Shown piece after piece: positions 52,258 to 56,098 of a DNA stretch of 64,000 nt. How positions within the stretch are numbered: position 1 is the stretch's first letter; each line of letters starts with the position of its first letter. Made by a program: the position numbers and the translations under genes. This DNA is from a virus. Below the pieces are notes generated by a model that saw only the letters and a list, made by a program, of their open reading frames with translations, did not search any database and was not told the DNA's origin. The stretch lies in the IMG/VR virus record IMGVR_UViG_3300017989_000002; one strand, given 5' to 3'.

Positions 52258-53034
52258 ATGACGAGCGACGAGAACACGAAGGTTGAGGTGACCCCCACGG
52301 GGTCCGCGACGCTGGATGACCTGCTGGGCATCGGCGGCTGGCCGCGAGGCCGCGTGGCGGAGATCTACGGGCCCGAGAAGGCGGGCAAGACGACTCTGGC
52401 CCTGCATGCTGTCGCCGAGGTGCAGGCGCGCGGAGGCACGGCCGCCTTCGTCGATGCCGGGCATGAGCTCGATGTGGCGTACGCGACCACGCTGGGTGTC
52501 GACGTCGACCAGATGCTGGTGAGTCAGCCCGACTCCGCGGAGCAGGCGCTGGAGGTCGCCGAGGCGCTGTCCAGGTCCGGCGCCGTCGACCTGGTGGTCG
52601 TCGACCACGTGGCCGGCCTTGTGCCTCAGGCAGACCTCGAGGCCCAGCAGCAGGATGCGCTCCTGGGCCTGCATGCCCGGCTGATGTCCCAGGCGCTGCG
52701 CAAGCTCACCGCGGTCGCCCACCGCACCGGCGTGACCGTCATCTTCATCAACCCGACTCGCCAGAAGGTCGGCACGGTGTTCGGCAACGGCGAGACCACT
52801 CCGGGTGGCAACGCGCTCAAGTTCTACGCCTCCGTCCGGCTGGATGTCCGGCGTGTGGGTGCGATCACCCGAGAGGGCAAGCAGGCGGGTGCCCTCGTCC
52901 GCCTGAAGGTGGTGAAGAACAAGCTGGCCGTGCCCTTCCGGAGCGCGAAGGTCGATCTCCTCCACGGCAAGGGCTTCCGCGACATCGAGGTCGAGGAAGC
53001 AGATGCCGGGGGCGCACGTGTGGACCCGCAGTGA
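52258..53034 (+). CDS. recA: Truncated RecA homologue with altered catalytic residues
   Basis: [44 protein letters not shown]. Confidence 0.9.
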
Positions 53035-54183: not shown

Positions 54184-54744
54184 CTACAGCTTCTCGCTGC
54201 CCCGACCAGCGGCCCGCCTGCGGAACATGGCCGAGCTGGGCTTCTCGCCCCGGACCGCCGCGTTCCGGTTGCGGATGAGGCGGCTGCGCTGGTTCACGCG
54301 ACGAGGGCTGTTGGCGCCGGCGAGCTCGGCCTTGACCCGGGCCGGGTTCTTGGAGCCTGCCGCAGCCTGACGGCGGCGGACTTCGGAGATGGCGCCGGTG
54401 ATGCCTCCCACGCCGAGAGCCGCGGCGGCGCCCATCGCAGCGGCTTTGCCCTTGCTGGGTGGGCGCGAAGGGATGCCCATGCGGACGCTGTGGTGGTGGA
54501 TGTCTGCATCGTTCGCGAAGCTGCCCAGCGTGGCCAAGGCACCGGCGGCTCCGCCGGCGGCTCCTCCCACGCGCGCTCCGCGGCTCTTGTCCTTGCCCCG
54601 GGCCTCCATGTACTGGCGCTGCATGTTCTCGCGCTCGCCCGGCGACAGGGTGCGGTCCTTCTTCGCCGAGCGACGCATGCGCTCGTAGGGAGAGAAGGGG
54701 CCTGCGATCTTCTCCATCTCGGTGACGAACGCGTCGTGCAGCAT
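54184..54744 (-). CDS. Basic glycine-zipper protein with N-terminal DAFV.EMEK.A motif
   Basis: GGAGG RBS; MLHDAFVTEMEKIA; two Gly/Ala-rich hydrophobic segments. Confidence 0.75.
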   Translation of the reverse strand: MLHDAFVTEMEKIAGPFSPYERMRRSAKKDRTLSPGERENMQRQYMEARGKDKSRGARVGGAAGGAAGALATLGSFANDADIHHHSVRMGIPSRPPSKGKAAAMGAAAALGVGGITGAISEVRRRQAAAGSKNPARVKAELAGANSPRRVNQRSRLIRNRNAAVRGEKPSSAMFRRRAAGRGSEKL

Positions 54745-54793
54745 GGGGACCTCCGTGGACGGGAGCATACTGCTTCCAGATCTAGGATGCGAG

Positions 54794-54866
54794 TGGTCGG
54801 GGCCGGAGTCGAACCGACGACACCTGGTGTTTCAAGCCAGTGCTCTACCAACTGAGCTACCCAACC
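54794..54866 (-). tRNA. tRNA-Phe(GAA)
   Basis: GGTTGGG/CCCGACC acceptor, GCTC/GAGC D-stem, TT-GAA-AC loop, GGTTCGACTCC. Confidence 0.9.
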
Positions 54867-54870
54867 GGTG

Positions 54871-54947
54871 TGGCGGGACAGGGGGGACTCGAACCCCACT
54901 CGCAGTCGGATTTGGAATCCGCCCGGCTGATACCCCAGCTCTCTCCC
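54871..54947 (-). tRNA. tRNA-Trp(CCA), atypical D-arm, encoded CCA
   Basis: CGGA-TT CCA AA-TCCG anticodon arm, GGTTCGAGTCC, G73 plus CCA. Confidence 0.8.
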
Positions 54948-54953
54948 GGTGAG

Positions 54954-55034
54954 TGGGAGGAGTGGGGGTCGAACCCACCATGCCGAACGGCAGCCGGTTT
55001 ACAGCCAGCTTGGTCACCCCGACGCGTCCCTCCC
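54954..55034 (-). tRNA. tRNA-Tyr(GTA), long variable arm
   Basis: GGGAGGG/TCCTCCC-A, GCTGG-CT GTA AA-CCGGC, TGCCG/CGGCA variable stem. Confidence 0.9.
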
Positions 55035-55077
55035 AGAACGACGAAGCCCTCGGAGCTGGTGCGCCGAGGGCTTCATC
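55035..55077 (-). terminator. Putative attenuator terminator hairpin
   Basis: GATGAAGCCCTCGG/CCGAGGGCTTCGTC 14-bp stem then GTTCT, directly before tRNA-Tyr. Confidence 0.7.
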
Positions 55078-55098
55078 AAGGAGAGGTGCTGTCTCTCG

Positions 55099-55179
55099 TC
55101 AGGATGCCGGCGCAGTGCTCCGAGGGCAGCCAAACCAATAGGTGGCGGCGAGGAGGTTGCGCTGGCGGGTGCTGTTCAT
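55099..55179 (-). CDS. Leader peptide MNSTRQRNLLAATYWFGCPRSTAPAS (26 aa)
   Basis: ATG at the predicted +1; consecutive TAT TGG TTT match the three downstream tRNAs. Confidence 0.8.
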   Translation of the reverse strand: MNSTRQRNLLAATYWFGCPRSTAPAS

Positions 55180-55185
55180 GCCGAG

Positions 55186-55214
55186 ACCCTACTCACGCGG
55201 CGCGCGGGCGTCAA
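55186..55214 (-). promoter_or_regulatory. sigma70-type promoter TTGACG-N17-TAGGGT
   Basis: Near-consensus -35/-10 with 17-nt spacer; ATG follows 6 nt after the -10. Confidence 0.8.
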
Positions 55215-55232
55215 GGGGAAGTAGTTGAGAGA

Positions 55233-55308
55233 TGGTTGCGGGGAGCGGACTTGAACCGCCGACCTGCGGATTATGAGTCCGCCGCTCTACCAGCTGAGCT
55301 ACCCCGCG
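55233..55308 (-). tRNA. tRNA-Met(CAT), initiator-like acceptor stem, encoded CCA
   Basis: CGCGGGG/CCCCGCA-A-CCA with C1:A72 mismatch; CT-CAT-AA loop. Confidence 0.9.
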
Positions 55309-55321
55309 ACAGGGTGTGAGA

Positions 55322-55395
55322 TCCGGACGGGTGGTCTCGAACCACCGACCCCCTGCTCCCAAGGCAGGTGCGCTACCAGACTGCGCTACGCCCGG
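55322..55395 (-). tRNA. tRNA-Pro(TGG)
   Basis: CCGGGCG/CGTCCGG-A, GCGC/GCGC D-stem, CCTGC-CT TGG GA-GCAGG. Confidence 0.9.
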
Positions 55396-55421
55396 TCGAA
55401 GACCGCGGGCGCAGCTCGACG

Positions 55422-55493
55422 CTACGCCCGCTTGGTCGGTCGGGGCGTGTGAACCGGCATTCGGTTCAGCTGGAGTCGGGAGAGGTCGATCAT
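55422..55493 (-). CDS. Leader peptide MIDLSRLQLNRMPVHTPRPTKRA (23 aa)
   Basis: ATG at the predicted +1; internal ATG CCG (Met-Pro) plus two more Pro, upstream of tRNA-Pro/Met. Confidence 0.7.
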   Translation of the reverse strand: MIDLSRLQLNRMPVHTPRPTKRA

Positions 55494-55500
55494 GGCCCGC

Positions 55501-55529
55501 ACCCTACTCTCGCCCGGAGGCCGCCGCAA
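55501..55529 (-). promoter_or_regulatory. sigma70-type promoter TTGCGG-N17-TAGGGT
   Basis: Same GAGTAGGGT -10 context as the 55186 promoter; ATG 7 nt downstream. Confidence 0.75.
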
Positions 55530-55540
55530 GCTGTTCGCGC

Positions 55541-56098
55541 TCACGAAGGCGAGCCGCTTGCTCCTGACGGGTCTGGGCGGATGCCGTCTTCTTCACGGCC
55601 TGGTGCTTGTGTGGCTTGCAGAGCAAGCACCCGGCACGGGCACTCTTCGGCCGACCTCGCTTGTGGTTCATCGGGAGCCTCCGGAGCGAAGATAGACCGG
55701 GCGACGCGTCCGAGCCAGCGGCTCGCTTCCTTCGTGAACAGCCCCGCGAGAACCCCTGCGGCCGGGTAGCCCCAGGCGTTGTCGGCGTCGGCGCCCATCC
55801 CCGCCAAGAGGATGAGGCCCACCGCGAGCGCCAAGACTGCGGACTCGACGGGGTGGAGCAGGTACCACGCCGCCCAGCTGTCTTGGAAGGTGCGCGAGCC
55901 CAGCTTTGCGCCGAAGCTCGACATCGCGTGGTAGACGCCCCCCAGCATCCCGGCTGCCGCCGTGGCCGCGAGCGTAGCGTCGGGGACGCCTGCCAGAAGG
56001 CCCTCGAGGGACAGGTACAGCACGCCGCCGGCGAGCAGCAGCTGCCCTGCCAGGACGGCGAGCAGCGAGTAGATCCGGTACCAGCTGACCTGGTTCAC
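55541..56098 (-). CDS. Multi-pass membrane protein
   Basis: Four hydrophobic helices; GMLGG, WYLLHP, AGLF. Confidence 0.7.
   Translation of the reverse strand: MNQVSWYRIYSLLAVLAGQLLLAGGVLYLSLEGLLAGVPDATLAATAAAGMLGGVYHAMSSFGAKLGSRTFQDSWAAWYLLHPVESAVLALAVGLILLAGMGADADNAWGYPAAGVLAGLFTKEASRWLGRVARSIFAPEAPDEPQARSAEECPCRVLALQATQAPGREEDGIRPDPSGASGSPS

What the first reader, a model, noticed from the sequence alone, without database searches (positions are those of the whole stretch)
55233..55529. Second leader module: Met-Pro leader peptide that may gate folding of pre-tRNA-Pro
Seen: promoter TTGCGG-N17-TAGGGT, then a leaderless 23-aa ORF with ATG CCG at codons 12-13 and Pro at 17 and 19, followed by tRNA-Pro and tRNA-Met. 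The ORF end CGGGCGTAGCG, which includes the stop codon, is an exact copy of the tRNA-Pro 5' strand. The spacer segment GCTGCGCCCG can therefore pair either with the ORF end (11-bp hairpin, extendable by GACC/GGTC) or with the tRNA-Pro 5' end (about 13-bp bulged hairpin that would destroy the acceptor stem). Inference: a ribosome at the stop codon masks the decoy copy, so the tRNA misfolds and is not matured or transcription ends. Stalling at Met-Pro leaves the decoy free and the cloverleaf folds. This would be attenuation by tRNA-mimic strand exchange rather than by a classic terminator.
Basis: partly seen in the sequence, partly recalled or inferred. Interest (0 to 1): 0.9.

Follow-up and report, generated by a model that had tools for sequence, protein, structure and literature searches.

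The report
Leader ORF switch before phage tRNA-Pro
In a 175-kb uncultured high-GC phage, the tRNA-Pro/tRNA-Met gene pair follows a promoter, a 23-codon reading frame and an RNA segment that can pair either with the end of that frame or with the first bases of tRNA-Pro; this looks like a ribosome-operated switch on tRNA supply, but no relatives or RNA data exist to test it.

Summary
On the minus strand lie TTGCGG-N17-TAGGGT, an ATG 7 nt later, a 23-codon ORF (Met12-Pro13, Pro17, Pro19), an 11-bp hairpin, then tRNA-Pro(UGG) and tRNA-Met(CAU). The hairpin's 5' arm contains the stop codon and copies tRNA-Pro positions 2-12 exactly. With a 4-nt indel the copy is 15 nt long, and an inverted copy lies between the two (+ - +).

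The window is part of a 174,678-bp phage. Its only other TTGNNN-N17-TAGGGT site heads a neighbouring module. There a leaderless 26-codon ORF reads Tyr-Trp-Phe before tRNA-Tyr, a tRNA-Trp-like gene and tRNA-Phe (p about 7e-4), and it folds like a classical three-state attenuator.

At codons 19-24 the spacer captures the tRNA 5' end.

Limits:
- All other copies are 99.9% identical, and the nearest relative lacks tRNAs at this locus.
- No RNA data exist.
- The Met-Pro match alone is weak (p about 0.05).
- The tRNA-Met looks like an initiator.
- Neither hairpin has a U-tract.
- One template-switch duplication could explain the repeats.

This scan has noted leader ORFs before phage tRNA genes in many other genomes. 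I found no published account. Confidence in a ribosome-operated switch is about 0.4.

The parts
55501..55529 (-). Host-type promoter-like site A: TTGCGG, 17-nt spacer, TAGGGT. The TAG of the -10 is also the stop codon of an overlapping 55-codon ORF.
   Evidence: Sequence. It is one of only two TTGNNN-N17-TAGGGT sites in the 175-kb genome. The E. coli-type consensus scan does not call it.
55422..55493 (-). Leader ORF-A, 23 codons plus TAG. ATG lies 7 nt after the -10, so it is probably leaderless. Met12-Pro13, Pro17, Pro19. A 40-codon version starts at GTG 55544, overlapping the upstream gene's TGA (GTGA).
   Evidence: GC3 0.85 over the 40 codons. Three of the four best host-type promoter matches in the genome have ATG 6-7 nt after the -10.
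55450..55468 (-). Hairpin 1 (leader nt 26-44). It carries the Met12 codon in its loop and the Pro13 codon in its 3' arm.
   Evidence: Fold.
55443..55448 (-). Segment 1 (ACGCCC). It can pair with GGGCGU of either the decoy or the tRNA-Pro 5' end.
   Evidence: MFE of untranslated leader plus tRNA. Weak evidence, since a 6-mer could be chance.
55420..55441 (-). Segment 2, the 'decoy'. This is the upstream copy of the tRNA-Pro 5' flank and positions 2-12 (15 nt with a 4-nt indel). It contains the ORF stop codon and is the 5' arm of hairpin 2.
55401..55415 (-). Segment 3, the 'spacer'. This is an inverted copy of the unit and the 3' arm of hairpin 2, plus GGUC. It pairs either with the decoy or with the tRNA 5' end.
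55322..55395 (-). tRNA-Pro(UGG). Its first 11-12 nt are segment 4 of the switch. No CCA is encoded.
55233..55308 (-). tRNA-Met(CAU), initiator-like: C1xA72 mismatch, A73, encoded CCA. It has only two of the three G-C pairs at the foot of the anticodon stem.
55035..55214 (-). Context: module B. TTGACG-N17-TAGGGT, a leaderless 26-codon ORF (55179-55099) with TAT TGG TTT at 55140-55132, an antiterminator/terminator pair, and a terminator hairpin at 55077-55040.
54793..55034 (-). Context: tRNA-Tyr(GUA), a tRNA-Trp(CCA)-like gene (54947-54874, missed by ARAGORN) and tRNA-Phe(GAA).

Best explanation
Module A is a translation-sensing leader that sets the output of the phage's tRNA-Pro/tRNA-Met unit.

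Proposed mechanism:
1. Host RNA polymerase starts at or next to an AUG, and a ribosome translates the 23-codon frame.
2. Three copies of one 14-15-nt unit follow in + - + order: the ORF end with its stop codon (decoy), the spacer, and the tRNA-Pro 5' end.
3. If the ribosome is absent, late or stalled before codon 19, decoy and spacer form an 11-bp hairpin and tRNA-Pro folds normally. Causes of delay would be poor leaderless initiation for lack of initiator tRNA, or slow decoding at Pro13 or Pro17.
4. If the ribosome reaches codons 19-24 while the polymerase is making the tRNA 5' end, the decoy is covered and the spacer pairs with the tRNA 5' strand.
5. That pairing buries the RNase P site and removes the acceptor stem. 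The transcript is then mis-folded or, possibly, terminated.

The result would be negative feedback: more tRNA when its codons are read badly.

Shown: the sequence anatomy, its non-randomness, and the alternative folds in silico.
Inferred: the transcription start, translation of the frame, transcription-translation coupling, and the output (processing block versus termination).
For: - The two unique promoter matches of the genome each precede a tRNA unit.
- ATG lies at +1/+2 in three of the four best host-type promoter matches, about 2e-5 by chance.
- The exact 11-mer repeat (15 nt with an indel) of the tRNA 5' end has an inverted copy between the two copies. The empirical rate of such an 11-mer repeat is 0.115%.
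- The stop codon lies inside the decoy arm.
- The leader fold has z = -3.8.
- The acceptor-stem probability is 0.5-0.97 for A-site codons 13-18 and <=0.02 for codons 19-24. No contrast as large was seen in 837 shuffles.
- The late-codon 'off' state weakens when the acceptor stem or the hairpin arms are changed in silico.
- In the 'off' fold GGUC pairs with GACC across the RNase P site.
- The adjacent module B has Tyr-Trp-Phe codons before tRNA-Tyr, a tRNA-Trp-like gene and tRNA-Phe (p about 7e-4). It shows classical three-state attenuator folding.
- The phage's own gene-end hairpins also lack U-tails.
Against: - There is no comparative evidence. The other assemblies are 99.9% identical, and the nearest relative has no tRNAs next to the homologous gene.
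- The codon match is weak: one Met-Pro pair, p about 0.045, and three Pro codons of 23.
- The tRNA-Met is initiator-like, so Met12 is probably not cognate.
- A ribosome on the stop codon also covers about half of the spacer.
- No U-tract follows either hairpin.
- Fold predictions of a tRNA in a GC-rich context are unreliable. 94% of shuffled leaders also 'block' the cloverleaf when untranslated.
- The frame can also be read as a 40-codon last gene of the upstream operon, through a GTGA overlap.
Confidence: 0.4

Rival explanations
1. Ordinary tRNA unit with a duplication scar. A single fold-back template-switch event copied the tRNA-Pro 5' end into an inverted and a direct copy (+ - +). This created a hairpin that now serves at most as a terminator or stabiliser for the upstream genes, or as an insulator of the pre-tRNA leader. 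The short frame and its Met-Pro pair are chance.
For: - The repeat includes 3 nt of non-tRNA flank and has an indel, as a copying event would give.
- Any copy of a tRNA 5' end brings a TAG (tRNA positions 8-10), which is in frame one time in three.
- Met-Pro has p about 0.045 only.
- The hairpin resembles the phage's other gene-end hairpins.
- The module is absent at this locus in the nearest relative, so it is recent.
- The frame is reachable from the upstream gene by GTGA.
Against: - It does not explain the promoter match with ATG at +1/+2, repeated at module B and at a third site.
- It does not explain the 98-nt leader.
- It does not explain why the neighbouring unit has a codon-matched attenuator layout.
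- A terminator placed between a promoter and its tRNAs would be counter-productive unless it is conditional.
Confidence: 0.33
2. pyrBI-type coupling. Hairpin 2 is a terminator, and a ribosome that keeps up with the polymerase and reads into it (the stop codon lies in the 5' arm) melts it. The tRNAs would then be made only when translation is efficient, which is the opposite sign of control.
For: - The stop codon lies inside the 5' arm.
- Ribosomes at codons 19-24 abolish hairpin 2.
- The hairpin is of the same U-less type as the phage's gene-end hairpins.
Against: - The sign makes little sense for a supply gene and is opposite to module B.
- It gives no role to the copy of the tRNA 5' end.
- The tail GGUCUUCGA is U-poor.
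Confidence: 0.1
3. The leader is a small-protein mRNA in its own right (23 or 40 residues). RNase P cleavage at tRNA-Pro makes its 3' end, and hairpin 2 protects that end. The tRNAs are not regulated by it.
For: - GC3 of 0.85 in this frame is typical of the phage's genes.
- A third leaderless short ORF heads a protein-coding operon elsewhere.
- The hairpin lies at the very 3' end of the would-be released leader.
Against: - A 23-40-residue frame is too short for GC3 to mean much.
- Pfam and PHROGs searches of the neighbouring proteins found no family apart from a topoisomerase-like match. ORF-A itself was not searched.
- This reading does not explain the identity of the hairpin arm with the tRNA.
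Confidence: 0.1

Closest known systems
Ribosome-mediated leader-peptide transcription attenuators of amino-acid operons (trpL, pheL, hisL, thrL, ilvL)
   Same: A short ORF lies in the 5' leader. Ribosome position chooses between mutually exclusive hairpins. The stop codon lies in or next to the segment that a finishing ribosome covers. Codons are related to the product controlled. Module B next door fits this layout closely.
   Different: The controlled genes are tRNAs, not enzymes. There are single regulatory codons instead of runs. The transcript is apparently leaderless. No U-tract terminator is present. In module A the last segment of the switch is the tRNA's own 5' strand. There is no Rfam leader hit for module A, and only a chance-level His_leader hit (E 0.96) on module B.
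Leaderless polycysteine short ORFs acting as Cys-responsive attenuators in mycobacteria (bioRxiv 10.1101/834739); leaderless short ORFs in mycobacteria (PMC4633059)
   Same: The transcript starts at the AUG of a short ORF that is the first cistron and senses decoding of particular codons.
   Different: Those control protein-coding operons and carry runs of Cys codons. Here the host is unknown, the targets are tRNA genes and the codons are single.
pheST (pheM) attenuator and T-box leaders of aminoacyl-tRNA synthetase genes
   Same: The supply of the translation machinery is tuned to the state of a particular tRNA or amino acid.
   Different: T-box RNAs bind tRNA directly and have a conserved T-box sequence. 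No such family was found here. pheM controls a synthetase, not a tRNA.
Leader ORFs before phage tRNA gene blocks noted earlier in this scan (AI notes, e.g. e1-5369880, e1-5707669)
   Same: A short ORF with codons matching the tRNA genes behind it, plus alternative hairpins. One note describes a high-GC phage where a segment pairs either with the stop-codon region or with the tRNA 5' end.
   Different: Those are other genomes that were not examined here. They are unpublished, and my literature searches found no published account.

Membership tests
Leader-peptide transcription attenuator | Short ORF in the 5' leader, translated | tested here: inconclusive
   The ORF is present with ATG 7 nt after the -10. 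Translation and the transcription start are not measurable here, and no RNA run holds the phage.
Leader-peptide transcription attenuator | Regulatory codons cognate to the controlled product, usually in runs | tested here: inconclusive
   There is one Met-Pro pair (p about 0.045) and 3 Pro codons in 23. The tRNA-Met is initiator-like, so Met12 is probably not cognate.
Leader-peptide transcription attenuator | Mutually exclusive hairpins selected by ribosome position | tested here: met
   Decoy:spacer versus spacer:tRNA 5' end. The contrast was not reached by any of 837 shuffles.
Leader-peptide transcription attenuator | Intrinsic terminator (GC hairpin plus U-tract) as the output | tested here: not met
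   No U-run follows either hairpin, and the scan finds no terminator. The phage's gene-end hairpins also lack U-tails, so a U-less terminator is not excluded.
Leader-peptide transcription attenuator | Conservation or covariation in relatives | not testable with these tools
   Only 99.9% identical copies were found. Thirteen related IMG/VR fragments hold no tRNA. Pattern scans found nothing.
T-box riboswitch | Specifier loop and conserved T-box sequence (Rfam model) | tested here: not met
   There was no T-box hit at E <= 1 in 54600-55800.
tRNA (RF00005) | Cloverleaf above the gathering score | tested here: met
   tRNA-Pro scores 62.9 bits and tRNA-Met 67.4 bits. ARAGORN agrees.
Bacterial initiator tRNA | C1xA72 mismatch | tested here: met
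   The first pair is non-canonical in the cmscan alignment and unpaired in the fold.
Bacterial initiator tRNA | Three G-C pairs at the foot of the anticodon stem, and A11:U24 | tested here: not met
   The sequence has two G-C pairs plus A31-U39, and C11:G24 (read from the sequence). It is therefore initiator-like, not a typical initiator.

The most novel reading that the evidence does not exclude
A phage autoregulates an initiator-like tRNA-Met and tRNA-Pro operon through a leaderless mini-ORF. The ORF's translation needs exactly these tRNAs: initiation at a 5' AUG and three Pro codons. The tRNA's own 5' strand is the last element of a ribosome-controlled strand-exchange switch. The output would be folding or RNase P processing of the pre-tRNA (or termination inside the tRNA), not a classical terminator.
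Probability: 0.25. Interest if true: 0.85.

Novelty: new variant of a known kind. Interest (0 to 1): 0.6.

Why it matters
Phage tRNA genes are usually treated as constitutive helpers for codon usage or as spares against host tRNA-cutting defences. A built-in sensor that makes them only when their codons are read badly would be a new layer of phage-host translation control. It would extend leader-peptide attenuation from enzymes to tRNAs. A switch that uses the tRNA's own 5' strand would also be a compact design that can be tested in vitro.

Tried and rejected
- Relatives by protein in IMG/VR: the 215-aa neighbour, the 725-aa protein and PolA gave nothing.
- GenBank phages: no DNA match, no match for the 725-aa protein, and PolA below 30% identity.
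- The downstream 194-aa gene has only identical copies, plus one 53% homologue on a 2.3-kb contig without tRNAs.
- TerL relatives exist at 52-85% identity. The 13 IMG/VR fragments hold no tRNA. The long contigs in other collections cannot be read beyond 10 kb from a known gene, and they are not held for whole-record search.
- RecA homologues turned out to be cellular genes.
- Topoisomerase-like homologues gave no usable context.
- DNA pattern scans for tRNA-Pro and the tRNA-Trp-like gene found only unrelated sequences or nothing. My first metagenome pattern contained a base that is peculiar to the window.
- The E. coli-type promoter and terminator scan calls nothing here.
- A trp-type reading of module A was rejected. 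It would take hairpin 2 as terminator and ACGCCC:GGGCGU as antiterminator, but a ribosome at Met12-Pro13 would cover that antiterminator.
- Literature searches found no paper on attenuators before phage tRNA genes.

Full report
**What the window is.** The window is the reverse strand of positions 92110-156109 of a 174,678-bp virus record with terminal repeats and about 68% GC. It has no close relative among GenBank phages. There is no DNA match, and PolA is below 30% identical to anything there. The same phage occurs at 99.9% identity in sediment and seawater metagenomes.

ARAGORN finds four tRNA genes in the whole genome, all in one 600-nt stretch on the window's minus strand: Pro(UGG), Met(CAU), Tyr(GUA) and Phe(GAA). 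Rfam adds a fifth, tRNA-like gene between Tyr and Phe (54947-54874). It has anticodon loop UUCCAAA (Trp), discriminator G and an encoded CCA, but an odd D arm and a sub-threshold score.

**Check of the observation.**
- TTGCGG (55529-55524), a 17-nt spacer and TAGGGT (55506-55501);
- ATG at 55493;
- a 23-codon frame ending in TAG at 55424-55422, with Met12-Pro13, Pro17 and Pro19;
- tRNA-Pro 26 nt after the hairpin, then tRNA-Met.

The 11-mer at 55430-55420 equals 55394-55384. Allowing a 4-nt indel, the repeat is 15 nt and includes three bases of the tRNA's 5' flank. The segment between the two copies is an inverted copy with one mismatch and one indel, so the arrangement is + - +.

The leader folds into two hairpins at -43.3 kcal/mol, better than all 200 shuffles. 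An exact 11-mer recurs within the preceding 100 nt at only 0.115% of positions in this genome.

**Promoters and leaderless starts.** A loose search (TTGNNN, 16-18 nt, TA[G/C]NNT) gives eight hits in the genome. The form TTGNNN-N17-TAGGGT occurs twice, both here, 315 nt apart, each ahead of a tRNA unit.
- In module B the ATG follows the -10 by six bases.
- In module A it follows by seven.
- At a third site of the same type (L006:416-541) a 29-codon frame also starts seven bases after the -10, and it overlaps the next gene by ATGA.

Three of four such sites having ATG at that offset is about 2e-5 by chance. I therefore take transcripts starting at the AUG as likely, though unmeasured. Most other phage genes carry a different motif, CGCATAAG. 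The tRNA units therefore look like host-polymerase, probably early, units.

**The neighbouring module.** Leader B is 145 nt long with a 26-codon frame. Its codons 14-16 are TAT TGG TTT, the same order as the tRNA-Tyr, tRNA-Trp-like and tRNA-Phe genes behind it. A Tyr/Trp/Phe tripeptide in any order occurs 10 times in 349,340 six-frame windows of this genome. That gives p about 7e-4 for a 26-codon frame.

Its fold has z = -6.2. When only the RNA 3' of the ribosome is folded, three states appear:
- A ribosome on the Tyr codon makes an antiterminator the most stable fold even at full length (nt 53-63 with 124-134, and 66-74 with the terminator's 5' arm).
- On Trp or Phe, the antiterminator forms first and is within 3 kcal/mol of the terminator fold.
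- A ribosome on the stop codon, or no ribosome, leaves the 14-bp terminator.

That is the classical three-state logic. Module B is not my finding, but it raises the prior that module A, built from the same parts, also senses translation.

**Folding of module A.** I folded the RNA 3' of a ribosome placed at each codon, together with tRNA-Pro.
- With the A site on codons 13-18, hairpin 2 (decoy:spacer) forms, and the seven acceptor-stem pairs have mean probability 0.5-0.97.
- With the A site on codons 19-24, the decoy is covered. The spacer pairs with tRNA positions 2-11, and GGUC pairs with GACC across the RNase P site. The acceptor probability falls to <=0.02.
- None of 837 dinucleotide-preserving shuffles of the leader gave as large a contrast.
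- Changing the acceptor stem or flipping the hairpin arms in silico partly relieves the late 'off' state.

Two cautions apply. First, the 'off' state of the untranslated leader is not specific, because 94% of shuffled leaders do the same. The lower edge of the 'on' window, at Pro13, should therefore not be over-read. Second, a ribosome on the stop codon covers the RNA to about nt 83, which is half of the spacer. Only about nine pairs of the alternative helix can form before release.

**Which signal would be sensed?** The robust prediction is a distinction between two cases. Either a ribosome reaches the last six codons while the tRNA 5' end is being made, or it does not.

The tRNA-Met has the C1xA72 mismatch, A73 and CCA of bacterial initiator tRNAs. 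It has only two of the three G-C pairs in the anticodon stem, and C11:G24. If it is an initiator, Met12 is not its codon. The leaderless start codon is, because initiation at a 5' AUG depends on the initiator tRNA (general knowledge, not tested here). The frame would then report on both products: initiation for tRNA-Met, and three Pro codons for tRNA-Pro. This is inference.

**Rivals.** A single fold-back template switch can create a + - + arrangement. A copy of a tRNA 5' end always brings a TAG. The Met-Pro pair has p about 0.045. The hairpin resembles the phage's other U-less gene-end hairpins. The frame can also be entered from the upstream gene by a GTGA overlap, as a 40-codon frame with GC3 of 0.85.

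The closest relative I could find has TerL 84% identical. It comes from the same sample as contig L011, and I infer (not shown) that L011 belongs to that relative. L011 has two unrelated genes, not tRNAs, before the homologue of the downstream gene. The cassette is therefore lineage-specific, and the scar reading stays serious.

The scar reading does not explain three things: the promoter-plus-ATG design repeated three times, a 98-nt leader before a tRNA, or the codon-matched attenuator next door.

**Comparison with the known.** The layout works like the leader-peptide attenuators of amino-acid operons and like the leaderless Cys-sensing short ORFs of mycobacteria (10.1101/834739; PMC4633059). 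It fails one defining feature of the former, the U-tract terminator. It differs in target (tRNAs), in codon number, and in using the tRNA itself as the last segment. No Rfam family fits.

Full-text searches found no paper on attenuators before phage tRNA genes. This scan's own notes list many such leader ORFs in other large phages. One is in a high-GC phage with the same 'stop-codon region or tRNA 5' end' alternative. I did not examine those and do not count them as evidence.

**Verdict.** My confidence that this is a ribosome-operated switch on the tRNA unit is about 0.4. My confidence in the specific strand-exchange output is about 0.25. I class it as a new variant of a known kind.

Noticed in passing
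window 54874-54947 (-): A tRNA-Trp(CCA)-like gene lies between tRNA-Tyr and tRNA-Phe. It has G73 and an encoded CCA, but a 4-nt D loop, a G5-G68 mismatch and a sub-threshold score (24.5 bits against the tRNA-Sec model). ARAGORN misses it.
   Followed up: partly
window 55035-55214 (-): Module B has a leaderless 26-codon ORF with TAT TGG TTT before tRNA-Tyr, the tRNA-Trp-like gene and tRNA-Phe. Constrained folds show classical three-state attenuator behaviour.
   Followed up: yes
L006:416-541 (genome 80416-80541): A third host-type promoter match (TTGCGT-N17-TAGACT) has ATG seven bases later. It opens a 29-codon ORF that overlaps the next gene's start by ATGA.
   Followed up: partly
window 55335 and 62465: The window differs from the held genome record at two bases. 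At 55335 (tRNA-Pro T-loop, position 60) three other assemblies agree with the record and not with the window.
   Followed up: partly
window 55504-55671 (-): A 55-codon ORF with a strong GGAGG ribosome-binding site overlaps the end of the 185/215-codon ORF by 131 nt. It ends in the TAG of the -10 hexamer. GC3 shifts frame twice between 55700 and 55420, so the gene model here is unclear.
   Followed up: partly
whole genome; e.g. window 48245, 43350, 30131, 24569: A phage-specific motif CGCATAAG, often followed by GACTTGGAG, occurs 15 times, nearly all on one strand ahead of genes. It is a likely phage promoter, distinct from the host-type sites at the tRNA units.
   Followed up: no
window 52258-53034 (+): The phage's short RecA core is 71-75% identical to cellular RecA proteins. 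Those come from genomes that carry two recA copies, and some database names say Myxococcota or Alphaproteobacteria MAGs. This is a clue to the host lineage, and a caution against assuming an actinobacterial host.
   Followed up: partly
L011 (2.3-kb contig, same sample as a TerL 84% relative): The homologue of the gene downstream of the tRNA cluster is preceded by two unrelated ORFs and no tRNA. The tRNA cassette therefore seems to be a lineage-specific insertion.
   Followed up: partly
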